A DNA stretch of 64,000 bases from Oligoflexia bacterium (GTDB taxonomy: Bacteria; Bdellovibrionota_G; JANQFH01). Below the pieces are notes generated by a model. The model was given only the letters and a program-made list of their open reading frames with translations, searched no databases and had not been told where the DNA came from. Positions 11,472-64,000 of this stretch are shown here, piece after piece (the first letter of the stretch is position 1; the number at the start of each line of letters is the position of its first letter). The translations under genes and the position numbers were made by a program. Where the stretch lies: contig JANQFH010000008.1 of NCBI GenBank assembly GCA_028277945.1, forward strand, positions 128,742 through 192,741. The letters are read 5' to 3'.

Positions 11472-11567
11472 GTGAATCCCCCCTTTACGCTGCCTATAAA
11501 GCAAAGCTGGTGCCAAAAGCAATTTTAGTAATATTAGATAGTTAGAACTTTAGAGGCGAAGCCCTCT

Positions 11568-11614: not shown

Positions 11615-11734
11615 TGAGAGAGAACTTTTGTTTTCACATGAAAATTCAACTCTCTGTTTATACGTGGGTTTTTACCTAGGCAGATGGCCCAGGATTTGCA
11701 TTCCAAGCGTGAGGAAGGGAGTTAACCCGGCTAC

Positions 11735-34864: not shown

Positions 34865-35149
34865 TGGAGGTGGCTTGAACCCACCTAACAAGAGACTCCC
34901 GCCGCCGGAAAAGCGAAGGTGCGATTCACTCGCGCCTGAGCGCGGGGTCTGGGGGCATCGACGAGGCGTTGAATCTATAATAAATACGAGAAGCGACCCT
35001 ACAGCCGAGGAGGGCCCCCAGCTAAAATGGAGGCGGCGGGAGTACCGTTCCCACTACGCGGGAACGTTCTCCTAAGGAATGGTTCATTGTAAGCGCCTCC
35101 AGTAAAGCATTGCTTCGCAATACTTTACTGGAGGCGGCGGGAATCGAAC
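34865..35149. repeat. Cluster of tmRNA 3'-end-derived att-core copies: tRNA-like TGGAGGTGGCTTGAACCCACC (34865-34885), inverted partial copy GACTCCCGCCGCC (34894-34906), TGGAGGCGGCGGGAGT (35028-35043), and the attL copy TGGAGGCGGCGGGAATCGAAC (35129-35149)
   Basis: Direct comparison with the ssrA 3' end TGGTGGAGGCGGCGGGAGTCGAACCCGCG at 44823-44851. Extended imperfect hairpin CCTCCAGTAAAGCATTGC-TTC-GCAATACTTTACTGGAGG at 35096-35135. Confidence 0.6.
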
Positions 35150-39936: not shown

Positions 39937-42444
39937 TCAGCTTTCCATATTAGATCCAAGGTTTTCTAATGTTCCGCTAGTTGGCGGAAAATGGGAAAGA
40001 TGGGAAACTTGATGCCATTCTCCAAATACTTGTTTCTCTTTTTTCCCTTTTTCCGGCAACTTTAAGAGCAAGGGACTAACACGATAAATGGTGGTCGGTT
40101 TTCGGGTAGCCACTCTTTTTGGCTTACTGATTAAGTTGCGATCACTTAGAATCTTTAGTGCACACGTCAAATGTTCCGACTTTCCAAATTTTCTATGGCG
40201 CATGGCTGAGGTAAGCTGCGTGCGAGTAAATGAGGGCTTTCCTTGTGCCATAATCCATTGGAAGATCTCTTTTGCATTTTCGACTGTTTGATCTGCTCCC
40301 ATCAAGCCATAGGCTGCAATCATATGCTCTGTGAGCAGAGCAGCTATTGTTAGGGCCTTTGCCATTGTCTCTCCAGAAATAACGAGCTGCTCTTGGTCAT
40401 AATTCCCAACATGCAAAATTCCCGCTAGACGAAGAGCAAACCCACATATTTTCCCGCCACTACCCAGACAAGGTGCTAGCCTGCCATCTGGTCGAAGCTG
40501 AGTTTCTATTTTCGCTTGAAATTCACGCCATTCTTGAAGAGCTTCAGGTGAAAGAGTTAGAACATGGCGTCGATCTTGGTCTTCTTTGGGCAATGACGGA
40601 AGGTCTAGCAGCATTTTAATCTTTTGGTGGTAAGCTTGCCGAGCTTCCAAAGGAACCGGCGGCTTATCATGAGTGCGATATCCGAGTTTACTTTTTGGTA
40701 TGACAAAGAGAAAACGTTCTAACATTCCATTGCCAGTAAAGGCCTTTTTAGATCTCATATTTTGGATAATGACGGGCTGCACAGTCAAAACAATCGTGAG
40801 AAAAGGTGTTATGTCAAAATTACGGTCTTTACGTCGAATCCTTACGTGTCCACCATCGATTCCCTTCAACAAAATATCTACGTTTGCCGAACCCCCGGTG
40901 TAAAGGCCGCTCATGGTCTCGACAATGCCTCCCTCATCTGAAAATATAGCGAAATGCCCTCCTTGCTCATAAACGCTATTAGCAAGCGCCTCAGGCGTTG
41001 TATCGTTAGAGAATAGCTGTGGCAGGGCTTGGGGTTCAATTAAAGATATCTCTTCCTCGGCGATTTTGTTGATTAGTTCTCGTTGTTTTGAAGCATCTTT
41101 TTCCCGTGCGGCCTTAGCCCTTAGGGATTCGATAATTTTCTCTTGGCTTTTTCGTTCCGAGCGCTGCCGTTTGATTTCGGCCTCTAAAGTTTGTGCTTGT
41201 TCACGTTCCCAGCTTATGAGTGGTTCCGTACAGTTATTAAAGACCTGTGTTTTATTATTTGCTGGGGGGAGAGCAATAAGTGTGTAAATATTAAGGGACT
41301 CACGCCAACCATCCTTCGGACTGACGACAAAGTGTTTTGCTGCCGCAGCCGATACCGTGCCAAGAACGCACATTACAGCCAGAGCCTCAGGGACTTCTGT
41401 GGACGTAGCAAGTGCCGCGGCAAATTTTCCGAGCACACCTGGCAAAAGGTCCGCTGGAATATCTGGTGTCTCGATCTCCTCAAAGAGGATCGGATCGTCC
41501 CACAGGCCGGAATCATCCTTTCGTGGGGTTGAGAACTTGATCCATTCCGACGGTACGGCGTGTAAATGATGCTTGATAGCATCAAGCAATCTTTCTTGTA
41601 TTTTTGCCCGCATCGGATGATCGTCTAATGAGGTCAACTCGTTCCAGTCAGTAAGTTCGGGTTGCTGTTTTAGCCAGTCGCAAACGTCCCCTTTTTCAGG
41701 CAACCCAGGCAGGCGAACTACTTTCATCACTGGTGCTGGTTTGCAATCCTGTATGATCCGCCAAACCTTTTTGATATAGCCTTCTCCCGCTTTGTCATTA
41801 TCTGGGGCGAGGTATATAAGGCTGACACCTTCCAACTCCTTCCAGTTAGTAAGATGGGCGCTACTCGCACCAAATAAACTTGTTACACACTGAAGACCGA
41901 GCCCTGCAAAAGCTGCTTGCTTTTTCTGCCCTTCAACCACGACAATAGCGTCATTCTTGTCTGTAAGAGTATCGAGTCCAATGAGGGGGTAACCGTTCTT
42001 TTTCATCTCCTGTGGTATGCCGGGCAAGAAACTTTTTCCGTTGGACCGGTAAAAGGGAATGTCCTCTTTGGGCTTGCCATTTCTGCCGGGAGCAAACCGT
42101 CTGATTTCGCCGATCACTTGACCGGTCTTATCCCGGTGTTCCCAAACAAAAATAGGGTTAGCCATTTTGCTATTCCAAGCTCCAAGTGCCAGTGCGGCCT
42201 CCTTGAAAGATTGCTGGTGCCGCTTCATTTGAAAACTAAGCACGTCGCCGCCACGCGCCCCGCACGCCATGCAACGATAACAACCGATACTAAGGTGTAC
42301 TCGCAGGGATGGTTTGTGATCGTCGTGGAAGGGGCAAATAGCCGATCTCCACTCACCGTTGCCAATCAACTTGAGGCCCTGAGCGTGGTAATAATCCGCA
42401 GGGTTTGGAAGGCGATCACGTGCAAAGCCGAATTGAGTCATTCG
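39937..42444 (-). CDS. Phage/plasmid (P4-type) DNA primase: N-terminal CHC2 zinc finger + Toprim domain + large C-terminal DUF3987-like domain (likely start MTQFGF at 42444; track start 42495 overlaps alpA)
   Basis: CPFHDDHKPSLRVHLSIGCYRCMACGARGGDV (CHC2 zinc finger). IVVVEGQKKQAAFAGLGLQCV...YLAPDNDKAGEG (Toprim E/DxD). Long C-terminal domain. Confidence 0.8.
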   Translation of the reverse strand, partial: RMTQFGFARDRLPNPADYYHAQGLKLIGNGEWRSAICPFHDDHKPSLRVHLSIGCYRCMACGARGGDVLSFQMKRHQQSFKEAALALGAWNSKMANPIFVWEHRDKTGQVIGEIRRFAPGRNGKPKEDIPFYRSNGKSFLPGIPQEMKKNGYPLIGLDTLTDKNDAIVVVEGQKKQAAFAGLGLQCVTSLFGASSAHLTNWKELEGVSLIYLAPDNDKAGEGYIKKVWRIIQDCKPAPVMKVVRLPGLPEKGDVCDWLKQQPELTDWNELTSLDDHPMRAKIQERLLDAIKHHLHAVPSEWIKFSTPRKDDSGLWDDPILFEEIETPDIPADLLPGVLGKFAAALATSTEVPEALAVMCVLGTVSAAAAKHFVVSPKDGWRESLNIYTLIALPPANNKTQVFNNCTEPLISWEREQAQTLEAEIKRQRSERKSQEKIIESLRAKAAREKDASKQRELINKIAEEEISLIEPQALPQLFSNDTTPEALANSVYEQGGHFAIFSDEGGIVETMSGLYTGGSANVDILLKGIDGGHVRIRRKDRNFDITPFLTIVLTVQPVIIQNMRSKKAFTGNGMLERFLFVIPKSKLGYRTHDKPPVPLEARQAYHQKIKMLLDLPSLPKEDQDRRHVLTLSPEALQEWREFQAKIETQLRPDGRLAPCLGSGGKICGFALRLAGILHVGNYDQEQLVISGETMAKALTIAALLTEHMIAAYGLMGADQTVENAKEIFQWIMAQGKPSFTRTQLTSAMRHRKFGKSEHLTCALKILSDRNLISKPKRVATRKPTTIYRVSPLLLKLPEKGKKEKQVFGEWHQVSHLSHFPPTSGTLENLGSNMES

Positions 42445-42446
42445 TT

Positions 42447-42650
42447 TTACCTTTTTGGGCCCTTTTGTGATTGTGTTATGCGCTCGGTGATCCAATGGTC
42501 AACTTCACTGGAGATCCATGCAACGGACCGTGATCCAAGCCGAACAGGTTTTGGAAAATCGCCGTCGGCTATCTTTTCATAGAGTGAGGACCGAGGAAGG
42601 CCAGTTAGGGCCTCGACTACTCGTCGGCGAAGCAGTTTTTTTGTATCCAT
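42447..42650 (-). CDS. alpA: AlpA-family phage regulatory protein / excisionase-like MerR-type HTH
   Basis: LLRRRVVEALTGLPRSSLYEKIADGDFPKPVRLGSRSVAWISSEVDHWI is the canonical AlpA/Xis pattern. Confidence 0.8.
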   Translation of the reverse strand: MDTKKLLRRRVVEALTGLPRSSLYEKIADGDFPKPVRLGSRSVAWISSEVDHWITERITQSQKGPKR

Positions 42651-42753: not shown

Positions 42754-43422
42754 CTACTTGAAATCTAAGTGTTTTTTTCTAAATGACGGGGTGTTGGCTG
42801 GTAGTGTTTTGTTGATTCGATTCTTGATTTGATTTGGCGAAAGCAAAAATTTTCGGAATTTAGGAGGGTAAAAACTCTCTATCGCCTTTAACGCCTCGGC
42901 AGTTAACGAGAACGCTTTATCAGCGTATCTCCTGATCCCATCCATATCCATTTCCTCATTGATGACATCGGTAATCTTTTTGAGCATTATAGTAAAACCA
43001 CCAACATCGGTGAATTTACGTTTCCCTTTTGGGAGAGTCTTGTTGTCAGAAGAAAATTTTGTATAATCCAGTCTCGTTTCATAAAGATAACTAAAAATCT
43101 TTTCCGCCTGCCTCCAATCCTCGACAGAAAAGGGCTGTGGATCAGCTTGCCTCATAGCGCAAAACGCTATGATTTTTTTTAGTTCACGGTCTGTTACGTC
43201 AAAACCAAGCCTGTCTTTTACGATGGAAGAGGAGTACAAATCGGCATATTTTAACGTTAGCTTATGCAGGTCTATGCTCAGAATTTTTGCAATTGACCGC
43301 AATGTTTTGGGTTTTAGAGAAGATAGTCTTTCATTTTGATGAAACAGTTTCACATAACCATCTTCACGCTCTTTCCGAAATTGAGCTTTTGTGTACTTAA
43401 ATCTATAGGAGAAATCAGTCAT
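42754..43422 (-). CDS. Hypothetical island protein (222 aa), start overlaps integrase stop by 4 nt
   Basis: ORF, Lys-rich, no motif recognised; translationally coupled to int. Confidence 0.45.
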   Translation of the reverse strand: MTDFSYRFKYTKAQFRKEREDGYVKLFHQNERLSSLKPKTLRSIAKILSIDLHKLTLKYADLYSSSIVKDRLGFDVTDRELKKIIAFCAMRQADPQPFSVEDWRQAEKIFSYLYETRLDYTKFSSDNKTLPKGKRKFTDVGGFTIMLKKITDVINEEMDMDGIRRYADKAFSLTAEALKAIESFYPPKFRKFLLSPNQIKNRINKTLPANTPSFRKKHLDFK

Positions 43423-44579
43423 ATTTTTTGGATGTTGCTTAGGCTAGCCATACTTTGCAGAGAAATCACTTGGGCCCCTCTCTTCAAATTATCAAGATAG
43501 TCAGCCCATTGCTGCATCATTTTTCTTCGCTCGACGAGGTGAGCGGTGCGGTTATAGGCTCGTCCGTTGGGATCGCGGACAGCATGGGCCAGTTGGTGTT
43601 CGATGAAGTCAGGGCGGACGCCTAAGATTTCATCCAGCATGGTGCGCGCCATGGCGCGAAAGCCGTGGCCGCTCATTTGGTCTTTGGTGTAGCCCATGCG
43701 TCTCAGGGCGGCCAGAACAGCATTATTGCTCATCGGCCTGGTGTTGGTACGCATGCTGGGGAAAACATAGCGGCCATCACCGGTCACCTGGTGAATCTCG
43801 CGCAGAACTGCAAGAGCTTGCCTTGATAGGGGAACCAGATGCGGTTCGCGCATCTTCATGCGTTCGGCTGGGATATTCCATTCAGCGTGGTCAAAGTCGA
43901 TCTCTTGCCACTGTGCTTTGCGAAGTTCACCAGGCCGGACAAACACCAAGGGAGCTAGGCGCAACGCGTACTTCGTCACAATAAAACCTTCGTAGTCGTC
44001 AATGGCACGTAGTAGCCCGCCAACATCGTTAGGGCTGGTGATTGCAGCTAAATGTTGTTTTTTGACTGCTGGTAAGGCACCACGCAAGTCATTGGAGATA
44101 TCTCGCTCAGCACGACCTGTTGCAACGGCATAACGAAAAACCTGTCCGCAGTTTTGCAAGACCCGATGGGCGGTTTCTATGGCTCCACGTTCTTCAATGC
44201 GACGAAGCGCTGTTAGCAGTTGAGGTGGTTTGATGTCGGCAATAGGGTGTTTACCGATCCAAGGTAAGATATCCTTTTCAAGTCGCTGCAAGATCCTGTG
44301 GCCATGGCCTTGGGACCAGTTATGAGAATTTTTGGCAAGCCATTCTCGCACCACCACTTCAAAACTATTAGCTACTTTCTGTGCTCTTGCTGCTTTAAAG
44401 GCTTTGCGGTGTTCGCTAGGGTCCACATCATCGGCGAGCAACTTCCTAGCTTGAGTATGACGTTCCCTGGCATCTTTTAGGCTCACGTCGGGATAGACAC
44501 CGAGAGACAACCGCTTTTCTTTGCCATCAAAGCGGTATTTGAAGCGCCACCACTTGCCACCGGTTGGAGCTACCTCCAA
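43419..44579 (-). CDS. int: Tyrosine site-specific integrase (P4-type)
   Basis: N-terminal arm-binding region (WRFKYRFDGKEKRLSLGVYPDVSLKDARE); catalytic region HGFRAMARTMLDE...IEHQLAH...AYNR with R..H..R..Y arrangement; located next to the ssrA 3' end. Confidence 0.9.
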   Translation of the reverse strand: MEVAPTGGKWWRFKYRFDGKEKRLSLGVYPDVSLKDARERHTQARKLLADDVDPSEHRKAFKAARAQKVANSFEVVVREWLAKNSHNWSQGHGHRILQRLEKDILPWIGKHPIADIKPPQLLTALRRIEERGAIETAHRVLQNCGQVFRYAVATGRAERDISNDLRGALPAVKKQHLAAITSPNDVGGLLRAIDDYEGFIVTKYALRLAPLVFVRPGELRKAQWQEIDFDHAEWNIPAERMKMREPHLVPLSRQALAVLREIHQVTGDGRYVFPSMRTNTRPMSNNAVLAALRRMGYTKDQMSGHGFRAMARTMLDEILGVRPDFIEHQLAHAVRDPNGRAYNRTAHLVERRKMMQQWADYLDNLKRGAQVISLQSMASLSNIQKI

Positions 44580-44822: not shown

Positions 44823-45176
44823 TGGTGGAGGCGGCGGGAGTCGAACCCGCGTCCGAAAGTCTCTTGGAGACAGGCAGCTACATGTTTAGCGCGTGATTTA
44901 AGTCTCGCACCTTAAAGCTCCCACGAGCAGGATCTTAAAATGCCAGCCCATCAAAAGTCTCATTGCTAACGTGATTGGCGCCGCTAGCAACCAGCCTGCT
45001 AGTTTTGCGCCCCAGCCCCTGTAGCAGGCGTCGGAGGTGAGACGTGGCTGTCAATTAAGCAGCCAATGCATAGTTGTCAGTGCCAACTATGTTTTTTCCA
45101 TCCGTTTTACGAGCAGACGGAACCCTCGACATGCTCCTGAATCCTTGATGACCCCCGTCGAGACCACATCGCCCCC
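44823..45176 (-). ncRNA. ssrA: tmRNA (transfer-messenger RNA), about 354 nt
   Basis: 5' end GGGGGCGAUGUGGUCUCGACGGGGG and 3' tRNA-like end GGACGCGGGUUCGACUCCCGCCGCCUCCACCA. Internal tag reading frame ...GGC ACU GAC AAC UAU GCA UUG GCU GCU UAA (predicted tag ending DNYALAA). Adjacent to smpB. Confidence 0.9.
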
Positions 45177-45258: not shown

Positions 45259-45735
45259 CTATTTTCGTCGCTTCTCCTTGGCCTTTCTGAGCTCCTTTCG
45301 CGATGCCTCGCGATCGATGACATCCCGTTTATCATACTTTCTCTTGCCAATGGCAAGGGCGATCTCCACCTTGGCCTTACCATGATCGTTGAAGTAAAGC
45401 TTTAAGGGAATCAAGGTAAAGCCACGCTCATCAACCTTGCTCTTGAGACGGCGGATCTCCTCCTTTTTCAGTAGCAGCTTGCGTCGTCGCAGCGGCTCAT
45501 GGTTGTAGCGATTGCCTTGGGCAAAAGGGGAGATGTGTACGTGGTAGAGATAGGCCTCGCCGTTTTCTATGCTGACATAACCATCGCCGAGGTTGGCGCG
45601 GCCGAGCCGCAGCGACTTTACCTCAGTGCCCTGAAGCACCAGGCCCGCCTCCATGGTGCGCTCAATTTGATAGTTGCGGCGGGCACGTCTATTTTGACAG
45701 ACTAACTGCATGGGCTTAAGGTTCTTTAATAGCAA
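45259..45735 (-). CDS. smpB: SsrA-binding protein SmpB
   Basis: 158 aa. RRARRNYQIE..LVLQGTEVKSLR..YLYHVHISPF..LLLKKEEIRRL..LIPLKLYFNDHGKAKVEIALAIGKRKYDKR matches SmpB throughout. Confidence 0.9.
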   Translation of the reverse strand: MLLKNLKPMQLVCQNRRARRNYQIERTMEAGLVLQGTEVKSLRLGRANLGDGYVSIENGEAYLYHVHISPFAQGNRYNHEPLRRRKLLLKKEEIRRLKSKVDERGFTLIPLKLYFNDHGKAKVEIALAIGKRKYDKRDVIDREASRKELRKAKEKRRK

Positions 45736-47518
45736 ACTTCTTGATCTTACTCACCAAAGTACGACGGGGTACTTTGAGTAGCTGTGCTGCCTTGGTCTGG
45801 TTCCATCCCGTCTTTTGCAACGCCTGGAGAATGATCTGCCTCTCAAAGTTTTGCACCAGAGTTTTCATCTCACCCATTATCGTGGCATCGCCGCCAAGAT
45901 GGGGTTGTGGTTTGGGGGTGGCTGAACCTGCTGTGGGCAAGTGGAGGTTCTCTGGAAAGATGGTCTTGCCGGTGGTGATGACCACAGCGCGCTCTACACA
46001 GTTTTGTAGTTCACGAACATTGCCTGGCCAGCTGTACTGTGCCAGCAATTCTTTCGCAGCTGCAGCGAACTTCAGCTCAGGTTTTTGGTAGGCTTCACGG
46101 TAGTGATCAAGAAAGAACTCTGCAAAATGGGAGATCTCGTTGAGGCGTTCGCGTAGCGGCGGGATCTCCACGAGCATACCGTTGAGACGGAAGTAGAGAT
46201 CCTCACGAAATAGCCCCTTATCAACAAGCTGCTTAAGGTTCTTATTCGTCGCACAGATCACGCGGATATGCACGGCAATTTCTTCAACAGCGCCCACGCG
46301 GCGAACGACGTTTTCCTGCAAAACACGCAGCAGCTTAGCCTGTAATGAGTTTGGTAGCTCGCTGATCTCATCGAGAAAGAGGCTGCCACCGTGGCACGCC
46401 TGGATAATGCCAACCTTTGCCGTGCTCGCGCCAGTAAAGGCACCCTTTTCATGGCCAAAGAGCTCGCTCTCCAACAGCGCCTCTTGGAAGGCACCACAGT
46501 TAATCGCCATAAACGGACCGTCGACAAATTTACTCTGTTGGTGAATGGTCTGTGCCACCAACTCCTTTCCCGTGCCGGTCTCGCCTTGGATCACCACTGA
46601 GATCGGCGTTGGCGCAATCTGCATCACGGTTTTATAGACCGCTCGCATCTTGTGGCTGTGGAGAAGGATCTTCTCCTGAATAAACGAAGGGTGGGACCGC
46701 TGCGCGCTACTAGCACCGTAAGAGCTGCCGCTCTTACCCGAGAGGCCCTTGAGCTCCATCCATATGGGTTGCCGACTTCTCTCTATCAGCTGGTCACGGC
46801 TGTTGCCATCGTTAGGATAGGTTGCCAACCCTACTTTGAGGCTGTGGCGTATGTTGAGATGCTTCATCAACTTGTGGATAAAGCGTCGAGCCGCCTCAGA
46901 CGAAGTCTCCGGCAGTAAGAGTTCGAGATCCCGCTGTCCGTAAGTGGCGAGCAAGTCCATCATGCGTAACTTTTCAAGAACTTTACGGGTGATGCTGGCC
47001 ATATCGGTCTGCTGATCGCTAATGTGCAGCATAACAATGGTGAGGTTGCGCTGGTAACGATAGGCGCGGTCGATCTCTTCATCGACACGATAGAGAAAGA
47101 GGTCGTGGTTGGGAATGTTGTGCAGGCCAGATAGGGGGTTGTGCTTGTCGACCATGGTCAGACGCAGGGTGGTGAGGCCAAGTGAGACTTCATTACCATC
47201 TGCCAACAGCGCCTTTTTGATCAACTTGCCACCGATAAAGGTGCCATTGGTAGAGTCAAGATCACGCAGGACAATCGATGCGTTGGTGACTTTGAGTTGC
47301 AGATGGGTCCGGGAGATCTGCTCATCGTTGATTTGAACGTCACACTCTTGCGTCCGGCCAATGGTTATGCTGCCGGGGTAAATTGAGAAGGCTTGGCCTC
47401 GGTCGGGCCCGGCAGTGACGGTGAAAAAACCCACAGGTGTCCGCTGCAGCGCAGGTTTTGCTGCCTCAGCGCCGGCTGAGCCTTTGGACTTACGGAAGGT
47501 GCTCTCCTGTTTGGCCAT
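45716..47518 (-). CDS. Sigma-54-dependent transcriptional activator with N-terminal FHA domain and C-terminal Fis-type HTH
   Basis: FHA: GSITIGRTQECDVQINDEQISRTHLQL..STNGTFI. AAA+ sigma54-interaction domain: GETGTGKELVAQTIH, GAFTGA, LDEISELP. C-terminal HTH QTKAAQLLKVPRRTLVSKIKKF. Confidence 0.85.
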   Translation of the reverse strand: MAKQESTFRKSKGSAGAEAAKPALQRTPVGFFTVTAGPDRGQAFSIYPGSITIGRTQECDVQINDEQISRTHLQLKVTNASIVLRDLDSTNGTFIGGKLIKKALLADGNEVSLGLTTLRLTMVDKHNPLSGLHNIPNHDLFLYRVDEEIDRAYRYQRNLTIVMLHISDQQTDMASITRKVLEKLRMMDLLATYGQRDLELLLPETSSEAARRFIHKLMKHLNIRHSLKVGLATYPNDGNSRDQLIERSRQPIWMELKGLSGKSGSSYGASSAQRSHPSFIQEKILLHSHKMRAVYKTVMQIAPTPISVVIQGETGTGKELVAQTIHQQSKFVDGPFMAINCGAFQEALLESELFGHEKGAFTGASTAKVGIIQACHGGSLFLDEISELPNSLQAKLLRVLQENVVRRVGAVEEIAVHIRVICATNKNLKQLVDKGLFREDLYFRLNGMLVEIPPLRERLNEISHFAEFFLDHYREAYQKPELKFAAAAKELLAQYSWPGNVRELQNCVERAVVITTGKTIFPENLHLPTAGSATPKPQPHLGGDATIMGEMKTLVQNFERQIILQALQKTGWNQTKAAQLLKVPRRTLVSKIKKFAIKEP

Positions 47519-47558
47519 AGCGGGTTCCTACTATTGTACCAACTGCAGCAGTTTAAGG

Positions 47559-48812
47559 CTAAGGGGCGACGGTAAAGGAGAAACCCTGCTCCTCTAGAGC
47601 GATCATGAGTTGGCTGACGTGGTCTGGGCCGCGTGTCTCCACGGTGAGGTGGCACTGCGCACTGCCAATGGGTGTCCTGCTGAAGATCCGGTCGTGGTTT
47701 ACCTGCAGGATGTTGGCGCGATGTTGGGCGCAGAGATGAGCGAGCTGCTCCAAAGCACCTGGACGATCTGAGAGCAGGATCTTCAGACGTGAGAGGCGGC
47801 CGCTCTTGAGTAAGCCGCGGTCAATGATGCGGGAGAGTAGGTTTATATCAATATTACCACTGGTTAGGATGGCGACGAGACGCTTGCCAACAAACCGCTG
47901 GCGGTGCTCCAACAGTGCGGCCACAGATGCAGCAGCAGGGATTTCTGAGAGCATCTTGCCCTGCTCAAGAAGATGTAAAATGGCCATGTTAAGGCTCTCA
48001 TCCGTGACCGTAACGAGGTCATCAACATGCGTTGGAATGGTCTCTTTGGCGATGCTGCAGAGGGTGTCAAGTTGGTCATCCTGCAATAGCGTTGGGTCGT
48101 AGACATAGCCGGTTTTGTGATGATGGCTACCCTTGAAAAAGGCAAAAACCCTACTGCTGTGTTGCGGTTCAACGCCAATGATCTTGGTATCTGGGTAGAT
48201 CGATTTGAAGGCAACGGCCACTGCGCTGATGAGCGCTCCCGTGGTTACCGGACACAAGAGGATATCCACAGGCTCGCTTTGGAGTTGATCGCTGATCTCA
48301 AAGCCGATGCTGCCGTAGCCGGTGATCACCTGCCTATCCTCAGAAGGGTGGAGGAAGGGAATGCCTCGTGCCTGAGCGATCTTCTCCGCCTCTTGCAATG
48401 CCTCGTTGATATCGCTGCCCTGAAGAATGACATCGGCACCAAAGGCGTGAATGCTGTGTACACGTTGTAATGGCGTGGTAATCGGCAAGACCACAGAGAC
48501 AGGTATCTCTAAGTTTGCTCCGTGTCGTGCAGCTGCAAAGGCGCTGTTGGTATTAGGAGCCACTAGAACGCCTTCTTTGCGGCTGCGCTTGTCGAGGTTC
48601 AGGAGTGCGTGCAGCAGGCCACGGTCGCGAAAGGTACCAGAAGGTTGAAAGTTCTCTAATTTGAGCAGGACCTCAGCATTGAGGAGTTCACTGAGAAAGG
48701 CTGCTGGGTAGAGGGGTGTGATAGGCAGGTGGGGCGCAAGCAACTCCTTTGCTGTCCGAATAGCCTCAGCAGTTATGTGGCGGCAGGCTGCTGGCATGGA
48801 CAGAGACCCCAC
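47559..48812 (-). CDS. Threonine dehydratase (IlvA)-like protein with single C-terminal ACT-like domain, but PLP-binding Lys replaced by Arg and glycine loop degenerate (probable pseudoenzyme/regulator)
   Basis: Aligns to IlvA fold-type II PLP enzymes. Canonical S-F-K-x-R-G is TFRDRG here. Tetra-Gly PLP-phosphate loop reads CPVTTGAL. C-terminal ACT-like region LKILLSDRPGALEQLAHLCAQHRANILQV. Confidence 0.65.
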   Translation of the reverse strand: MGSLSMPAACRHITAEAIRTAKELLAPHLPITPLYPAAFLSELLNAEVLLKLENFQPSGTFRDRGLLHALLNLDKRSRKEGVLVAPNTNSAFAAARHGANLEIPVSVVLPITTPLQRVHSIHAFGADVILQGSDINEALQEAEKIAQARGIPFLHPSEDRQVITGYGSIGFEISDQLQSEPVDILLCPVTTGALISAVAVAFKSIYPDTKIIGVEPQHSSRVFAFFKGSHHHKTGYVYDPTLLQDDQLDTLCSIAKETIPTHVDDLVTVTDESLNMAILHLLEQGKMLSEIPAAASVAALLEHRQRFVGKRLVAILTSGNIDINLLSRIIDRGLLKSGRLSRLKILLSDRPGALEQLAHLCAQHRANILQVNHDRIFSRTPIGSAQCHLTVETRGPDHVSQLMIALEEQGFSFTVAP

Positions 48813-48976: not shown

Positions 48977-49681
48977 TTAAACCGCCTTGCTCCTCGTTCG
49001 GGGAGCCAGTTTAAACTGGGCCAATTTTTTTCGCAGGGTGTTGCGGTTGATCCCCAACACTTTGGCCCCTTGGACCTGGTTCCAGTTGCTCTTATCCAAA
49101 ACCATCTTGAGCAGTGGCCGCTCCAGCCGCGGCATGATCAATTGGTGGAGGTTGTCTAATGTGGTGACATCGAGTCTACGCAGCACATGTAGGAGCTTCT
49201 CTTCCACAAGTTCTTCCAACGAGAGGCTTGCCACCACATCTTTGGCTGCCCGCTGTTGTTCTGCTTTGCAGATTAGGCAGCTAAGTTGACCTTTATTGAC
49301 TGGTTTGAGTATGTAGTCGTGAACAACCGCCTTCTTCAAGTAAGGCGAGATTTGCTGCAACTGTGTTGACTGCAGCAAGATAGCGCGAAAACTACTTTGT
49401 GGTAGTGAGGCGTTACCGCCGTTGCTGAAATAGTTAAGATGGTGATAGTCGAAGACAACACAGTGGGGTTTTCTTTTCTTTGCCCACTTTACCGCCTCGT
49501 GATGGTCGGCTGTGTGTAAGAGATGATATCCTTGAGAGCTTAAGTAGTTGCGAATGTTTGCAGGAAAAACGTGACGACTAGCACATATAAAATACTTGGT
49601 TGCCAAGAAAAACCTCTTAAGGGCTGAAAGCGCTATTTTTCCTACTGCATTTTTTTTAGGGTTGCAATGAGAAATTAACAC
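48977..49681 (-). CDS. Fis-family transcriptional regulator with atypical receiver-like N-terminal domain
   Basis: C-terminal Fis HTH LDKSNWNQVQGAKVLGINRNTLRKKLAQF; N-terminal region lacks the canonical acidic DD pocket. Confidence 0.5.
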   Translation of the reverse strand: MLISHCNPKKNAVGKIALSALKRFFLATKYFICASRHVFPANIRNYLSSQGYHLLHTADHHEAVKWAKKRKPHCVVFDYHHLNYFSNGGNASLPQSSFRAILLQSTQLQQISPYLKKAVVHDYILKPVNKGQLSCLICKAEQQRAAKDVVASLSLEELVEEKLLHVLRRLDVTTLDNLHQLIMPRLERPLLKMVLDKSNWNQVQGAKVLGINRNTLRKKLAQFKLAPRTRSKAV

Positions 49682-54668: not shown

Positions 54669-55970
54669 GTGGGCGCTGATTCTGATCCAAAAAAGCTGTT
54701 GATTGATGAGACAACCGGTCTACCTACCTTTCTCCATATTATGGAGGAGCTCGAGGAGATCCTCACCAAGAACCACTCGCTTGGTATGCTCTACGTCGAT
54801 CTTAGCTGCCTAAATCGCATTGAAGAGAAGTTTGGTACCTACGCCTACGAGCAGATCGTCCGCAGTATCAGCGAGATCATCCAATCCATGCGCGGCAACA
54901 TCATCCGCACCAACGATCTGATCGCGCTCAGTGGCGTGGGCACGGCCTCACCCATGATCTTTCTCTCGGAGCGGCGTACAGAAAAGGTCGACAGCTTTTT
55001 GACTCGGGAAAACGTTGAGGAGGTCAGCGATCGCGTCCAAGACTTCCTCTTCTCCAAGATCTTCTACCTGGTCTATCCTTATATAAAGGAGCGACCCAAG
55101 ATCAGCGTTGGCTTTTCCTTTATTGTCAACAACCCGCTGATTGCGCCGCGACGACTGATCTACGGACTCATTGAAGAAGCAAAACACATTGCCAAGCTGC
55201 AGCGCTCGCGTCTTGAGATCAAAAACAAAGAGCGGCTGCAGACGATCATCCTGCACGAAGACATTCAAACGCTCTACCAGCCCATCATCAACCTCGATAC
55301 CTTTGAGATCATTGGCTATGAGGCGCTCAGCCGCGGCCCTTTAAACAGCGAGTATGAAACGCCGGTGATGCTCTTTGCACTGGCACAGGAGACCGGCCTG
55401 GTTTTTGAGCTCGATCGCCTCTGCCGCAAGCGCGCCTTTGAAAACGCTCGCAGTCTCGATAGCGACAAGATGATCTTCATCAACACGCTGCCAACCACCA
55501 TTCACGATCCAGACTTTCGCGGTAAGTATCTGCGTGAGTTTCTCAAAGACCTTAACATCAAACCGGAAAACATCGTCTTTGAAGTAACGGAAAACGCCGC
55601 CATTGAGAACTACGCACTGTTTCGTGAGGCCGTGGAGTACTACACCAATATGGGCATCTCCATCGCCATTGATGATACCGGCACCGGCTACTCCACCCTC
55701 GAGTCGATCATTGAGATCAAGCCGCACTACTTGAAGTTTGATATTGCCATGGTGAAGAACATCGATAAGAGTGTGCTCAAACGGGAGCTGCTCAAGGCGC
55801 TTATTAATGTGGCAAATCATATCAACGCCACCGTGATTGCCGAGGGTGTGGAGACCCAGGGAGAGCTCAATGCGCTTCGTCAGCTCGGCGTCAAGGTCGG
55901 CCAAGGGTTTTTGTTTGCCCGCCCCGGTCCTGCCTTTCCCAAAGTAGAGCCCCAGTTTAGACAGACTTGA
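54669..55970 (+). CDS. Degenerate-GGDEF / EAL domain protein (c-di-GMP phosphodiesterase-like), GTG start
   Basis: EAL domain: YQPIINLDTFEIIGYEALSRGP, ..DDTGTGYS.., KFD..K, EGVET. N-terminal GGDEF-like region lacks the GG(D/E)EF motif (reads SGVGT). Confidence 0.75.
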   Translation: MGADSDPKKLLIDETTGLPTFLHIMEELEEILTKNHSLGMLYVDLSCLNRIEEKFGTYAYEQIVRSISEIIQSMRGNIIRTNDLIALSGVGTASPMIFLSERRTEKVDSFLTRENVEEVSDRVQDFLFSKIFYLVYPYIKERPKISVGFSFIVNNPLIAPRRLIYGLIEEAKHIAKLQRSRLEIKNKERLQTIILHEDIQTLYQPIINLDTFEIIGYEALSRGPLNSEYETPVMLFALAQETGLVFELDRLCRKRAFENARSLDSDKMIFINTLPTTIHDPDFRGKYLREFLKDLNIKPENIVFEVTENAAIENYALFREAVEYYTNMGISIAIDDTGTGYSTLESIIEIKPHYLKFDIAMVKNIDKSVLKRELLKALINVANHINATVIAEGVETQGELNALRQLGVKVGQGFLFARPGPAFPKVEPQFRQT

Positions 55971-56869: not shown

Positions 56870-59800
56870 TTGAGATTGCCAGCAGCTATGAGACTTCAAC
56901 CCGGGAATATCGCGATGCCCCCGCGACTCATCGGATTTATCCTTTTATTTTCAATAGTTCCAAGTACGACGTGGGCTGAGGAACCTTCTCTTGGTTCAAG
57001 CGCAACTTTTAATCAAGCCATTCGGCTTTACACGACCTCCGGTATTCCTGATGCAGGCGAGCAACTTAGACAATTACTGCCAGATATGAGAAGCAAAGCA
57101 GACTTTATTGATCACTGTCGTGACAGCCATAATCGACAGGCGGGTAAAGCGTTGTTTCAGATGGCTGTTACCGATCCCTCCAAAACAATTACCAGCCAGG
57201 CAGCGCGAGCAGCGGCTGCTAGGGTGTATATCGATTTTGTAAACGCATGGAACAAGGCTGGGGGAGGTGAGGAACGTCAACGACTTAAACAGGAAGCAAA
57301 GCACGGAATGCAGATGCTATTTAAAGGCCTCGAGCTCCAAACTGCACAAGAAAAGCATGGCGTTATTGAGAGAGTGAGAGTGAAAGCGCTTACTGCTGTA
57401 TCAGCGGTAGGTAAGGATGATCCCATACGAGTGAGAGTCACCCGAGCTCGGCTTTTCCTATCCGCCACAGTCAGTATGGCTGCCGTCGTTGGTAGAGAAA
57501 GTGTTTACCCACACTGGTTGAATGGAGATTACAGAAGGCAACTTCATTATATCGATGAGTTGCGATTCGCGGGTTCCCATGTTCTACTCAAGAAAATAAT
57601 CCAAAGTGACAGCTCTACCATCGTAATTGAACAGGCGCTGCGTGCCTATTGTGCGTATGCAGCAACAAAGGTACATTTCGTCGTCCTTCAATATAGTGCT
57701 CCAGAAGGCCAAAGCGTCAACGATTTTCAGAGAGCACTTGAAAAAGTCATGGGTAATTTGCAACGTACTATAGCGAGAGCAGATGACCGCTTAAAAATGT
57801 TGCAATCCTCACAGCCTGGAGATAGACGGCCCATCGGGATCGGTTCAGAACAACGAGCTTTTTATAGTCAGCTACTAGCGAGCATACAAAGTGCGACCAG
57901 CAGCAAGACCTTTAATTTGCCGCATGGATTAGCGGAATTCCTATTTAAACCAGTATTTCCTGATCCTAGAGTTGAAGTACGAAGCAGTCGTAACACTCCC
58001 ACCAAACCCGGTAGACGTCCGCCACCAGGAGGCAATGGCAATAACAACGGCGGCTACCTAGCTCTCCCCATTCCGAGTGCTCAATCTATGAATCGTGTCG
58101 GGCGTGCAGCTCGAGCGGCCGGCGCTGGTTTAGCGGGTATTGGTGTTGAGGCTGGGACAACGTTTCTGCCCGCAAAGCTTCTCTCGAAAATTTATCCAGC
58201 CATATTCAGCATGGATTTTGAGGAGCTTAACGATTATCTCAGCAGCGGCGAGCTTTTTACCGAGCTACCGCATGTCTTTTTCTTTTCCCTTGGTGCGGGT
58301 TTTGGCAGCAAGTCTGTTGATATGATTCTTGGTGAAAAGCTTCTAACCAGCCAGGCAAAAACTCCAGCAGCTCTGAGAGGCAGGCGTTGGCTGCTTGGCA
58401 TGGGTAGGTCTCGCGCCGTGCCGCTCTCTCATCTCTTGCTTAAGCACCAAGCGGGCTTTGTTGCCGGTACAGCCGCGGCTCTCGCAGTCCCGTCTGTATG
58501 GAACAGAGGCAGACTTCCTAGAGACTTGGTTCCCCAAGTCGCTATAGCAACCGCCACCTTTTCTCCCATCCATTTTGCGGTTACGGGAACGAGTCGTTCT
58601 GCTGTGGGAGCACACTCCTATAGACGGGCGATCAAAGCGGGTAAATCCAGCAGGGTGGCTGCCAGATATGCAGGGATGGTAGCACGAGGAATCTCAACAC
58701 CCACCCCTATGGGCGCATTTCTCAGAATTTTGGAGTTGAGCTTCTCCCTCTATTTTTCCGAGGCGTTTGTTGAACCCTTGCTAGAGCCACGCGCCTTGCG
58801 TGCCATGGCTGCTGTAGCCATGGGTCAAATTCTTAGCCGCATTGGCAGGACCCTGATGCGTGAAGAACCCATTGACGATACCGCCTATGCATCTCAGCTT
58901 ACAGAATTCTACTTAGGGCTGCTCGCCTATGTACGGCATGTTTCCATGTCAGATCTCACAGAGCAGCTTGAGGAACTTGATGATCAGTCTCGCGACCTCT
59001 ACCGAGATAGCCCTGATACCCTGCTGTTGGCACCCGGCATGTACGTGCTTGCTGCTGGTGCTGATGCCAAACAGTTTGAACTTGAAAAGATGGCTATTGA
59101 GCGACAGATTGCCCAGCTGGAAGCTAGTCGTCAGTATGACCCGATGTTGGTACGCTTTGCTGCAGAGATTTCCGCCATTCGGCCAACGCTTGCTGAGGTA
59201 GCCTTGAAAACAACTACGGAGGTTGAAGCCATAAAAGATGACTACCTCTCTCAGCTCACCGCCGAAATATTCACCGCTACCAGCATGGCGATGCTATCCC
59301 GTGCACCCATGCAAGATTTGCGTTGGCTCATAGCCATGTCCAGCAAAGGTGAAGTTTCTTTGCTTGATCGCAGTGACGCCCTGGATGCCAAGGCTCTCAT
59401 TGCCGCTGCCAGTCAGCTCGGCCCCTACCTTCGCGGCGTGATGATGCCAGAGAAGAACCTACCTTACCTGCGCCAGTATTACGGAGTACTTGCCGCAGCC
59501 GCCGTGGCCATGGCCTATCCCTATCAGCAAGATGAAGCTGTTGACATAATCCCAGAGTTGGACTTAACCACAAGTGCCTTTACCTTGCCCTTTGGTTTAG
59601 AGCACCCACTTGGGCACCCCGAGTTTCTACAAGAATTCTCAGCCTGGCAAGAGCAGAGAGATCAACCGGAGTTCAATTTAGCAAACCTATCCTTGCCACC
59701 ACTTCCTATTGAAACCCAGATCTCTGAACCTGAGCTGTTTGTAAAGACCGCCTCGTTGGTGGAGCCCGCAGGACAACGACCCATGGCTCTGCATGAGTCC

Positions 59801-60229
59801 CATGGCTACGAACCCTCTGAGGAAGAAGGGCTGCTGCTCTCCGAGCTACTGCGTATGTCGCAGCAGCGGCTGATAGAAAATCTGCTTGCAGATACCAACC
59901 CGCACCATCAATTAGAGCGAGACCGGCTCTTAGACAAGCTCATCCTTTTTGATCCGCAAGATCCTGTTGTCTTAGAGCTGTTGGCGGAACAGGTGGGCGA
60001 CAACTCAGAAGGCATCGATTATTCTTCAGCAAACATTGTCTCCATAGTAGACCTAGAAGCGAGACGCGAACGCTCTCTTAAAGTCAGCGCCTTTATCCAC
60101 CATTTTAAACAGCTCGATCGTGCAGCCAACTCCCTCTTACTCAGAGACCTCGGCACGTTCACCGTCTTGCACGCGCGTATGCAAGAAGTCACCACCTTCC
60201 TCCTCGACTACCTCGGTGATACGAGCTAG
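56870..60229 (+). CDS. Large hypothetical exported protein (1119 aa)
   Basis: Long ORF with N-terminal signal peptide PPRLIGFILLFSIVPSTTWAEEP; alpha-helical composition; no motif assigned. Confidence 0.55.
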   Translation: MRLPAAMRLQPGNIAMPPRLIGFILLFSIVPSTTWAEEPSLGSSATFNQAIRLYTTSGIPDAGEQLRQLLPDMRSKADFIDHCRDSHNRQAGKALFQMAVTDPSKTITSQAARAAAARVYIDFVNAWNKAGGGEERQRLKQEAKHGMQMLFKGLELQTAQEKHGVIERVRVKALTAVSAVGKDDPIRVRVTRARLFLSATVSMAAVVGRESVYPHWLNGDYRRQLHYIDELRFAGSHVLLKKIIQSDSSTIVIEQALRAYCAYAATKVHFVVLQYSAPEGQSVNDFQRALEKVMGNLQRTIARADDRLKMLQSSQPGDRRPIGIGSEQRAFYSQLLASIQSATSSKTFNLPHGLAEFLFKPVFPDPRVEVRSSRNTPTKPGRRPPPGGNGNNNGGYLALPIPSAQSMNRVGRAARAAGAGLAGIGVEAGTTFLPAKLLSKIYPAIFSMDFEELNDYLSSGELFTELPHVFFFSLGAGFGSKSVDMILGEKLLTSQAKTPAALRGRRWLLGMGRSRAVPLSHLLLKHQAGFVAGTAAALAVPSVWNRGRLPRDLVPQVAIATATFSPIHFAVTGTSRSAVGAHSYRRAIKAGKSSRVAARYAGMVARGISTPTPMGAFLRILELSFSLYFSEAFVEPLLEPRALRAMAAVAMGQILSRIGRTLMREEPIDDTAYASQLTEFYLGLLAYVRHVSMSDLTEQLEELDDQSRDLYRDSPDTLLLAPGMYVLAAGADAKQFELEKMAIERQIAQLEASRQYDPMLVRFAAEISAIRPTLAEVALKTTTEVEAIKDDYLSQLTAEIFTATSMAMLSRAPMQDLRWLIAMSSKGEVSLLDRSDALDAKALIAAASQLGPYLRGVMMPEKNLPYLRQYYGVLAAAAVAMAYPYQQDEAVDIIPELDLTTSAFTLPFGLEHPLGHPEFLQEFSAWQEQRDQPEFNLANLSLPPLPIETQISEPELFVKTASLVEPAGQRPMALHESHGYEPSEEEGLLLSELLRMSQQRLIENLLADTNPHHQLERDRLLDKLILFDPQDPVVLELLAEQVGDNSEGIDYSSANIVSIVDLEARRERSLKVSAFIHHFKQLDRAANSLLLRDLGTFTVLHARMQEVTTFLLDYLGDTS

Positions 60230-63780: not shown

Positions 63781-64000
63781 AGCTGAGAAATTCCTGAAGT
63801 GGTCCTGTAACATAGTCGCTTACCTGCTGGGCAGCGCGGCCGACAAAAAAACGCTCCTCCCAATTTTGCTGCTGCAGCTGCTGCAGCTGTGGCGCCAGAG
63901 CGTCTTCCTGTTTAAGACGCTCGAGCAGATCATTACCCTTACCATGCACCACTTGCTCAAACGCCGCCATGGAGTGCTGGCGCATGGTTTCATGCAACTG
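63752..64000 (-). CDS. C-terminal end of an unidentified gene entering from beyond the window (partial); its stop overlaps the lipoprotein start
   Basis: Open frame from position 64000 down to TAG at 63752-63754 (..QLQQLQQQNWEERFFVGRAAQQVSDYVTGPLQEFLSYEPTTTDTT*). Confidence 0.35.
   Translation of the reverse strand, partial: QLHETMRQHSMAAFEQVVHGKGNDLLERLKQEDALAPQLQQLQQQNWEERFFVGRAAQQVSDYVTGPLQEFLSYEPTTTDTT

What the first reader, a model, noticed from the sequence alone, without database searches (positions are those of the whole stretch)
47559..48812. Threonine-dehydratase-like protein lacking the PLP lysine (K->R) and the tetra-glycine loop: likely pseudoenzyme
The protein aligns with biosynthetic/short-form IlvA (fold-type II PLP enzymes with one ACT-like domain). 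The invariant Schiff-base lysine of the SFKxRG motif is arginine here (QPSGTFRDRG, residue about 62, nt about 48627-48629). The GGGG phosphate-binding loop is TTGA, and the SAGNHAQG region is degenerate. Without the lysine it cannot form the internal aldimine. It is probably a non-catalytic ligand-binding or regulatory protein, positioned between a sigma54/FHA activator and a Fis-type regulator.
Basis: partly seen in the sequence, partly recalled or inferred. Interest (0 to 1): 0.6.

Follow-up and report, generated by a model that had tools for sequence, protein, structure and literature searches.

The report
Catalytically dead IlvA relative in Bdellovibrionota
This gene encodes a threonine-deaminase look-alike that has lost the lysine and loops needed to hold its vitamin-B6 cofactor but keeps its regulatory domain intact, so it is a rare, lineage-specific "dead enzyme" whose present job is unknown.

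Summary
ORF 47559-48812 (-), 417 aa, is a full-length short-form IlvA homologue (PALP plus one ACT-like domain). Arg62 (codon CGC) replaces the Schiff-base lysine, TTGA replaces GGGG, and PNTNSAFA replaces SAGNHAQG. All 264 alignable homologues keep the lysine. An independent assembly has the same codon.

The gene is the positional orthologue of a catalytically intact ilvA. In 5 of 6 related Bdellovibrionota genomes, that ilvA lies just upstream of the orthologous FHA / degenerate-GGDEF / sigma-54 activator. The regulatory neighbourhood therefore predates the loss of catalysis and is not evidence of a new regulatory role.

Only one other member of the dead clade exists in the public data searched, a 1-kb metagenome fragment. 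Between the two, the catalytic domain is 34% identical and the linker plus ACT domain 74%. Relative-rate tests show acceleration only in the catalytic domain. The query keeps 26 of 47 conserved catalytic-domain positions and 11 of 11 in linker plus ACT. Both ORFs are intact despite saturated synonymous divergence.

Best reading: a maintained pseudoenzyme whose selected part is the ACT-like domain and the fold. A decaying relic is the main rival. Ligand, partner and expression are untested. Interest is moderate to low.

The parts
47559..48812 (-). Full ORF of the IlvA-derived pseudoenzyme (417 aa from GTG; alternative ATG start at 48797 gives 412 aa)
47862..48731 (-). PALP (fold-type II PLP) domain, residues 28-317. 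It keeps only 26 of 47 family-conserved positions and evolves faster than in canonical IlvA.
48627..48629 (-). Codon CGC = Arg62 in place of the Schiff-base lysine (FK.RG becomes FRDRG)
48534..48560 (-). Residues 85-93, APNTNSAFA, in place of ASAGNHAQG (S86P, A87N, G88T, H90S, Q92F; Asn89 kept)
48234..48245 (-). Residues 190-193, TTGA, in place of the GGGG phosphate-binding loop
47562..47858 (-). Linker plus ACT-like regulatory domain, residues 319-417. All 11 of 11 family-conserved positions are kept (including the DRPG loop), and it is 74% identical to the only other clade member.
47519..47558 (-). 40-bp spacer to the next gene on the same strand. No terminator-like site lies in it, so co-transcription is possible.
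45716..47518 (-). FHA / degenerate-GGDEF / sigma-54 AAA+ / HTH_8 enhancer-binding protein. In related genomes its orthologues lie next to intact ilvA.
48977..49681 (-). 234-aa HTH_8 (Fis-type) protein with a weak receiver-like N-terminal part. It belongs to the 3D-YceD-LeuS synteny block.

Best explanation
The gene encodes a catalytically dead descendant of the short-form threonine ammonia-lyase IlvA (PALP domain plus one ACT-like domain) of Bdellovibrionota. It is the positional orthologue of an intact ilvA that, in related genomes, lies just upstream of the same FHA / degenerate-GGDEF / sigma-54 activator.

In this lineage the PLP site was dismantled: K62R, S86P, G88T, H90S, Q92F, Q166Y, G190T, G191T, G193A, G197A, A243L, G245D and G318S. 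The protein therefore cannot form the internal aldimine, and it lacks the lysine that serves as the general base for beta-elimination. That last point rests on established fold-type II PLP chemistry.

The protein is nonetheless kept. The fold, the open reading frame and above all the linker plus ACT-like domain remain under purifying selection. The most likely function is non-catalytic: small-molecule binding (probably an amino acid) and/or partner binding or oligomerisation through the ACT-like domain. Loss of an intervening gene has left it 40 bp upstream of the sigma-54 activator, so the two are probably co-transcribed.

Shown here: loss of the catalytic motifs, positional orthology, domain-specific rate asymmetry, and an intact ORF in two lineages. 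Inferred: catalytic inactivity, ligand or partner binding, and the operon.
For: Motif losses against solved structures and 250-268 homologues. The query keeps 37 of 58 columns that are at least 90% conserved, against a canonical mean of 55.5. All 21 losses fall in the PALP domain, and 11 of 11 are kept in linker plus ACT. The score against the TIGR01127 equivalog is 310.2, below the 378.75 cut-off, whereas the positional orthologues score 403-435.

In 5 of 6 related genomes an intact IlvA lies 1-2 kb upstream of the orthologous regulator, which is 41-42% identical with the same architecture. Nothing else is syntenic with the window.

The only clade relative (L001/P0002) also lacks GGGG (ARSG) and EGAGA (DMNGT). 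It shares the derived Y166, L243 and FFKG, so the loss predates the split of the two lineages. Query versus L001: PALP identity 0.34 and ACT identity 0.74; dN 0.66 versus 0.20, a ratio of 3.3 against 1.1-1.3 in canonical pairs; PALP pN 0.44 is below a saturated pS of 0.75.

Tajima relative-rate tests show the query accelerated in PALP in 11 of 12 comparisons (p < 0.05) and in ACT in none. The AF2 model has pLDDT 92 and pTM 0.88 with a beta-alpha-beta-beta-alpha-beta ACT domain, and the best fold matches are IlvA and TdcB. The same sequence appears in an independent assembly.
Against: Only two members were found among about 15 billion proteins, a 1.84-billion-representative exhaustive search and a metagenome DNA scan. 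Selection is therefore inferred from a single pair with saturated dS. The second member is a fragment that lacks the lysine region, so K-to-R is seen in one sequence only.

Related lineages have lost the gene entirely (L028, L070), so it is dispensable in the group. No ligand, partner or expression data exist. The short-form IlvA of S. aureus does not bind isoleucine (PMC12224302), so an ACT-like fold does not guarantee a ligand. The high AF2 confidence partly reflects an alignment made of canonical enzymes.
Confidence: 0.6

Rival explanations
1. Decaying relic. An ilvA that became useless in an amino-acid-outsourcing predatory lineage is drifting toward loss, and the protein has no function.
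For: The clade is extremely rare. Related genomes have already deleted the gene. The PALP domain is accelerated, and residues 231-250 are predicted with low confidence. Bdellovibrionota typically lose the pathways for costly amino acids (PMC11988736).
Against: The ORF is full length with no frameshift or stop in two lineages whose synonymous sites are saturated. PALP pN (0.44) is well below pS (0.75). The ACT domain is as conserved as in working enzymes (11 of 11 positions, no rate acceleration). Derived residues Y166, L243 and FFKG are shared and conserved.
Confidence: 0.25
2. Non-catalytic regulatory subunit or sensor working with a specific partner. The partner would be either a canonical IlvA paralogue (as a hetero-oligomer) or the adjacent FHA/sigma-54 activator, coupling amino-acid status to sigma-54 transcription.
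For: The IlvA/activator gene pair is the only synteny that survives between the window and the related genomes, and here the two genes are 40 bp apart on the same strand. There is a precedent for a fold-type II PLP pseudoenzyme acting as an allosteric activator: plant TSB-like (PMC12727527). The ACT ligand loop (DRPG) is intact.
Against: In relatives the pair is separated by an opposite-strand gene and the IlvA there is a normal enzyme, so the adjacency may simply be residual synteny. No sigma-54 promoter-like site lies near the gene. No paralogue is visible in the window. No interaction data exist.
Confidence: 0.15
3. Still an enzyme with altered chemistry. For example, PLP is held non-covalently or through a relocated lysine (K227 of the clade-specific FFKG motif), or another cofactor or substrate is used.
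For: Asn89, the ring-nitrogen Ser/Thr position (T317/S318) and one Gly of the phosphate loop remain. The Thr residues in TTGA could still hydrogen-bond a phosphate. K227 is conserved in both clade members.
Against: 21 of 47 conserved catalytic-domain positions are lost, including nearly every PLP and substrate contact. The two clade members differ from each other at the former phosphate loop (TTGA versus ARSG), which is not the pattern of a conserved new site. From general knowledge, no active fold-type II enzyme without the Schiff-base lysine is known.
Confidence: 0.05
4. Sequencing or assembly artefact at the lysine codon.
For: None found.
Against: CGC differs from AAR at three positions. 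About 20 other conserved positions are changed as well. An independent Logan assembly is identical over 5.35 kb.
Confidence: 0.01

Closest known systems
Short-form biosynthetic threonine ammonia-lyase IlvA (one ACT-like domain; NCBIfam TIGR01127 ilvA_1Cterm / PRK07334; B. subtilis and S. aureus type)
   Same: The architecture matches end to end (model positions 1-380 of 380). The fold is the same (Foldseek top hits are IlvA 8y1j, 9d2q and 1tdj). The linker and ACT-like domain motifs are the same, and so is the genomic position relative to the FHA/sigma-54 regulator as in related Bdellovibrionota.
   Different: It lacks the Schiff-base Lys, the GGGG loop, most of the SAGNHAQG loop and the ADG motif. 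It scores below both curated cut-offs. Its catalytic domain evolves about 3 times faster relative to the ACT domain.
Plant TSB-like pseudoenzyme (non-catalytic paralogue of tryptophan synthase beta, fold-type II PLP family; PMC12727527)
   Same: It is a fold-type II PLP enzyme descendant that lost catalysis yet is retained, acting through protein-protein allostery.
   Different: TSB-like became inactive through two point changes and has a demonstrated partner (TSA). Here the whole PLP site is dismantled, the source family is IlvA, the organism is a bacterium, and no partner is known.
MocR/GabR-type regulators (PLP-fold domain used as a sensor; PMC5320631)
   Same: They illustrate a PLP-enzyme fold recruited for sensing rather than metabolism (abstract).
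   Different: They are fold type I, fused to a GntR DNA-binding domain, and (from general knowledge) they retain the PLP lysine. The protein here is stand-alone, fold type II, and lacks the lysine.
Catabolic threonine dehydratase TdcB and serine racemase
   Same: Homologous catalytic domain (30% identity to TdcB, TM-score about 0.9 on the target).
   Different: Those lack the ACT-like domain and keep all PLP motifs.

Membership tests
Threonine ammonia-lyase, short form (TIGR01127 / PRK07334) | Full-length PALP domain followed by one ACT-like domain | tested here: met
   Pfam PALP 28-317. TIGR01127 aligned over 32-415 to model positions 1-380 of 380. The AF2 model shows a beta-alpha-beta-beta-alpha-beta C-terminal domain.
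Threonine ammonia-lyase, short form (TIGR01127 / PRK07334) | Score at or above the curated equivalog cut-off | tested here: not met
   310.2 against 378.75 (TIGR01127) and 327.3 against 496 (PRK07334). As a control, the positional orthologues L029, L030 and L032 score 403-435 on TIGR01127 and pass.
Threonine ammonia-lyase, short form (TIGR01127 / PRK07334) | Schiff-base lysine in the (S/T)xFKxRG motif | tested here: not met
   Arg62 (CGC). 264 of 264 alignable homologues have K.
Threonine ammonia-lyase, short form (TIGR01127 / PRK07334) | Tetra-glycine PLP-phosphate loop | tested here: not met
   TTGA at 190-193. The canonical columns are 98-100% G.
Threonine ammonia-lyase, short form (TIGR01127 / PRK07334) | SAGNHAQG substrate / PLP-O3' loop | tested here: not met
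   PNTNSAFA. Only Asn89 and Ala91 are kept.
Threonine ammonia-lyase, short form (TIGR01127 / PRK07334) | PLP binding and Thr/Ser deaminase activity | not testable with these tools
   Needs purified protein.
ACT / ACT-like regulatory domain | Sequence match plus beta-alpha-beta-beta-alpha-beta fold with the beta1-alpha1 'D.PG.L' loop | tested here: met
   ACT_4 scores 26.6 bits, just under the 27-bit cut-off. However, the model gives E340-348, H353-363, E367-374, E384-392, H396-408, E412-415, and D349, P351, G352 and L354 are conserved. Ligand binding itself was not tested.
Pseudoenzyme (maintained non-catalytic homologue of an enzyme) | Homologous to an enzyme family but lacking residues essential for its chemistry | tested here: met
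Pseudoenzyme (maintained non-catalytic homologue of an enzyme) | Maintained by purifying selection after loss of catalysis | tested here: inconclusive
   The ORF is intact in two lineages. PALP pN 0.44 is below pS 0.75. The ACT domain is 11 of 11 conserved with no rate acceleration. However, there is only one pair, dS is saturated, and the second member is a fragment.
Pseudoenzyme (maintained non-catalytic homologue of an enzyme) | Expressed, with a demonstrable non-catalytic function | not testable with these tools
   No expression or interaction data are available.

The most novel reading that the evidence does not exclude
The IlvA/activator gene pair is an ancestral functional unit in Bdellovibrionota. 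In this lineage IlvA has been converted into a stand-alone, ACT-domain-based amino-acid sensor that is co-transcribed with, and controls, the FHA / degenerate-GGDEF / sigma-54 enhancer-binding protein. This would link prey-derived threonine or branched-chain amino-acid status to sigma-54-dependent transcription.
Probability: 0.1. Interest if true: 0.65.

Novelty: new variant of a known kind. Interest (0 to 1): 0.35.

Why it matters
If the protein is truly maintained, it would be a bacterial example of a PLP fold-type II enzyme (IlvA) turned into a non-catalytic protein while its allosteric domain is preserved. That would be a natural experiment separating the regulatory module of the classic allosteric enzyme from its chemistry. 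My literature searches found no IlvA-derived pseudoenzyme. In practical terms, automated annotation would probably call it threonine dehydratase (the related fragment P0002 carries that name in JGI). That would overstate the isoleucine or threonine metabolism of this poorly known Bdellovibrionota lineage. The impact is limited by the clade's extreme rarity and by the absence of any functional data.

Tried and rejected
1. Finding the source genome or orthologues in the species-level genome collection. The single-protein scan found nothing. The alignment scan returned only canonical Bdellovibrionales, Streptomyces and Halanaerobium IlvA, with no shared neighbours.

2. An exhaustive HMMER search of 1.84 billion representatives. 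Only the query itself and P0002 exceed 39% identity.

3. A metagenome DNA scan for the clade-conserved peptide TVETRGPDH. It gave 33 loci. None belongs to the dead clade: every IlvA-like hit that covers the lysine motif keeps K, and L064 (49% identity over the C-terminus) has the canonical EGAGA and SGGN.

4. Contexts of the closest LeuS relatives. The L069 contig ends inside the HTH_8 gene. L070 has HTH_8 directly next to SmpB, with no IlvA and no activator. L071 and L072 are not syntenic.

5. Promoter and terminator scans and a sigma-54 promoter pattern. Counts were at or below shuffle expectation around the gene, and no sigma-54-like site lies upstream of it.

6. dN/dS proper could not be used, because dS is saturated. 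I used the dN ratio between domains and relative-rate tests instead.

7. Checking isoleucine-site residues of the ACT domain was abandoned. The only relevant structural paper shows that a short-form IlvA lacks the isoleucine site.

Full report
**Observation**

The minus-strand ORF at 47559..48812 encodes 417 aa from GTG. Public gene calls use the ATG at 48797 and give 412 aa (P0001). Pfam finds a PALP domain (4.9e-57, residues 28-317) and a weak ACT_4 match (26.6 bits against a cut-off of 27, residues 342-407). The best NCBIfam models are the short-form threonine ammonia-lyases. PRK07334 scores 327.3 bits against a cut-off of 496. TIGR01127 scores 310.2 against 378.75, aligned over model positions 1-380 of 380. 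The architecture is therefore complete, but both scores are below the curated cut-offs.

HMMER alignments to solved IlvA and TdcB structures show three replacements:
- R62 of SGTFRDRG lies under the Schiff-base Lys of FK(I/E)RG.
- APNTNSAFA lies under ASAGNHAQG.
- PVTTGAL lies under PVGGGGL.

The Arg codon is CGC at 48627-48629. It differs from AAA/AAG at all three positions. A Logan assembly of run SRR20820740 is identical to the window over 5,354 bp that include the gene. A sequencing error is therefore excluded in practice.

**How unusual it is**

Of the 268 best homologues from two searches, 264 have Lys at this column and 3 have a gap there. The only Arg is the query and its own database copy. 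I defined 58 columns that are at least 90% conserved in 250 canonical short-form IlvA sequences. The query keeps 37 of them, against a canonical mean of 55.5 and a 5th percentile of 50. The only sequences as low are N-terminally incomplete ones.

All 21 losses are in the PALP domain, where 26 of 47 positions are kept. All 11 positions in the linker plus ACT-like domain are kept. The lost positions are K62R, S86P, A87N, G88T, H90S, Q92F, K117R, Q166Y, G190T, G191T, G193A, G197A, A243L, G245D, A292P, G293A and G318S, among others. These cover the PLP contacts and the SAGNH substrate loop as known for E. coli IlvA and for TdcB. The residue roles come from my own knowledge of the published structures. 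Asn89 is retained.

**Relatives of the dead form**

The word-indexed search of 5.8 billion clusters and the exhaustive HMMER search of 1.84 billion representatives gave the same result. Only one sequence other than the query's own copy exceeds 39% identity: P0002. P0002 is a C-terminal fragment on a 1,013-bp JGI contig (L001, metagenome 3300037465).

P0002 is 46-48% identical to the query and covers residues 95-417, so the lysine position is not visible. It also lacks GGGG (ARSG) and EGAGA (DMNGT). It shares the derived residues Y166, L243 and the FFKG motif with the query. Dismantling of the PLP site therefore predates the split of the two lineages.

A metagenome DNA scan for the clade-conserved peptide TVETRGPDH returned 33 loci. 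None belongs to the dead clade, and every IlvA-like hit that covers the lysine motif keeps K.

**Organism and origin of the gene**

All named best hits of the window's LeuS are Bdellovibrionota. The closest is 70% identical. The downstream gene at 45716-47518 (-) is a sigma-54 enhancer-binding protein with an FHA domain, a degenerate GGDEF-like domain, an AAA+ domain (GAFTGA present) and HTH_8. Orthologues with the same unusual architecture, 41-42% identical over 95% of the length, occur in Bdellovibrionales MAGs.

In 5 of the 6 such genomes examined (L029, L030/L031, L032/L033, L034, L035, but not L028), a PALP+ACT gene lies 1-2 kb upstream on the same strand. Usually an opposite-strand inositol-monophosphatase gene lies in between. 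These IlvA proteins have every canonical motif: FKERG, SAGNHAQA, GGGG, CGGN and EGAGA. They pass the TIGR01127 cut-off at 403-435 bits and are 33-35% identical to the query.

No other gene of those loci has a homologue in the window. A neighbour-joining tree places the query and L001 together on a long stem, next to the clade of these syntenic IlvA proteins (no bootstrap, so this is weak support). The window gene is therefore best read as the positional orthologue of an intact ilvA. Its adjacency to the FHA/sigma-54 regulator is ancestral. It is not a consequence of, or evidence for, a new regulatory role.

The upstream HTH_8 gene belongs to another block, HTH_8 - (x) - 3D - YceD - LeuS - holA - EAL, which is conserved in the closest LeuS relatives. 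In L070, HTH_8 is followed directly by SmpB, with no IlvA and no activator. In L069 the contig ends inside the HTH_8 gene.

**Is the gene maintained or decaying?**

Between the query and L001, identity is 0.34 in the PALP part and 0.74 in linker plus ACT. Canonical pairs with similar ACT identity (0.73-0.76) have PALP identity of 0.58-0.73. Nei-Gojobori estimates give dN of 0.66 (PALP) and 0.20 (ACT), a ratio of 3.3 compared with 1.1-1.3 in three canonical pairs. Synonymous sites are saturated (pS 0.62-0.75), so dN/dS itself is unreliable. Even so, PALP pN (0.44) is far below pS (0.75).

Tajima relative-rate tests against four canonical Bdellovibrionota IlvA proteins with three outgroups show an excess of query-specific changes in PALP. 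In 11 of 12 tests p < 0.05, for example 75 versus 27 changes. The ACT domain shows no excess in any test.

Both ORFs are uninterrupted and differ from each other by only two 2-residue indels. AlphaFold2 predicts the full IlvA fold with mean pLDDT 92 and pTM 0.88. Confidence is low only at residues 1-10 and about 231-250, the former ADG lid region. The best structural matches are IlvA (8y1j, 9d2q, 1tdj) and TdcB. This confidence partly reflects an alignment built from canonical enzymes.

Together these results favour a maintained protein whose catalytic domain is relaxed but still constrained as a fold, and whose ACT-like domain is fully constrained. The evidence rests on a single pair of sequences.

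**Mechanism**

Without Lys62 the internal aldimine cannot form, and the general base for beta-elimination is missing. This follows from established fold-type II PLP chemistry and is an inference, not an assay. The most likely function is non-catalytic and centred on the ACT-like domain, whose D-R-P-G beta1-alpha1 loop is intact. That function would be small-molecule binding and/or partner binding or oligomerisation.

The gene now lies 40 bp upstream of the activator, with no terminator-like site in the gap, so co-transcription is plausible. There are several caveats:
- A short-form IlvA (S. aureus) neither binds nor responds to isoleucine (PMC12224302).
- No sigma-54 promoter-like site is near the gene.
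- Relatives have lost the gene outright.
- Bdellovibrionota generally shed costly amino-acid pathways (PMC11988736), which keeps the relic hypothesis alive.

**Comparison with known systems and novelty**

The closest family is short-form IlvA, but the protein fails four defining features: the curated cut-off, the lysine, the GGGG loop and the SAGNH loop. The closest functional analogue is the plant TSB-like pseudoenzyme, a fold-type II PLP paralogue retained as an allosteric activator (PMC12727527). Three literature searches found no IlvA-derived pseudoenzyme.

I rate it a new variant of a known kind. It is real and cleanly documented, but it is rare, functionally uncharacterised, and not very surprising to a specialist, because dead enzyme homologues are common. 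Interest is 0.35.

Noticed in passing
window 44823-45176 (-), 43419-44579 (-), 35129-35149 and 44826-44846: A tmRNA gene (tag GTDNYALAA) is followed by a tyrosine integrase. A 21-nt direct repeat of the tmRNA 3' end (20 of 21 identical) lies 9.7 kb away. This looks like an integrative element of about 9.7 kb inserted at ssrA, carrying a DUF3987/CHC2 primase-like gene at 39937-42495. Low G+C (0.43-0.48) continues back to about 24 kb, which may mean a second, older island.
   Followed up: partly
window 45716-47518 (-): The sigma-54 activator carries a GGDEF-like domain whose signature is degenerate (YGQRDL instead of GGDEF). The same degeneracy is conserved in all eight orthologues (Y/F-G-K/Q-Y/F-E/Q-L). 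In relatives, PilZ-domain genes lie just downstream, and the window has an EAL gene at 54669-55970. A c-di-GMP link is possible.
   Followed up: partly
window 48977-49681 (-): The 234-aa HTH_8 protein has only a faint receiver-domain match (21 bits, below the cut-off). The usual N-terminal acidic pair appears to be absent in it and in its L069 orthologue, as judged by eye. It is possibly a pseudo-receiver. If so, three consecutive genes carry degenerate catalytic or phospho-acceptor modules.
   Followed up: no
window 11500-11515 (-) and 11685-11700 (+): A perfect sigma-54 promoter consensus (TGGCACCAGCTTTGCT) and a one-mismatch site (TGGCCCAGGATTTGCA) face away from each other. They lie between two large genes with no Pfam match (8460-11522 on the minus strand, 11735-14002 on the plus strand). 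These are candidate targets of a sigma-54 activator.
   Followed up: no
window 14031-23738 (-): A 3,235-aa ORF that I did not analyse. Several other ORFs of about 750-1,100 aa (3376-6477, 8460-11522, 11735-14002, 56870-60229, 61027-63813) have no Pfam match at 1e-5.
   Followed up: no
L070 5501-6460: A related Bdellovibrionota contig carries two tandem SmpB genes. One is 67% identical to the window's SmpB and the other is a divergent 42% copy.
   Followed up: no
L028 2316-3458: In the one related genome that lacks ilvA upstream of the FHA/sigma-54 regulator, a Ser/Thr protein kinase gene lies in the same neighbourhood. This may be relevant to how the FHA domain is controlled.
   Followed up: no
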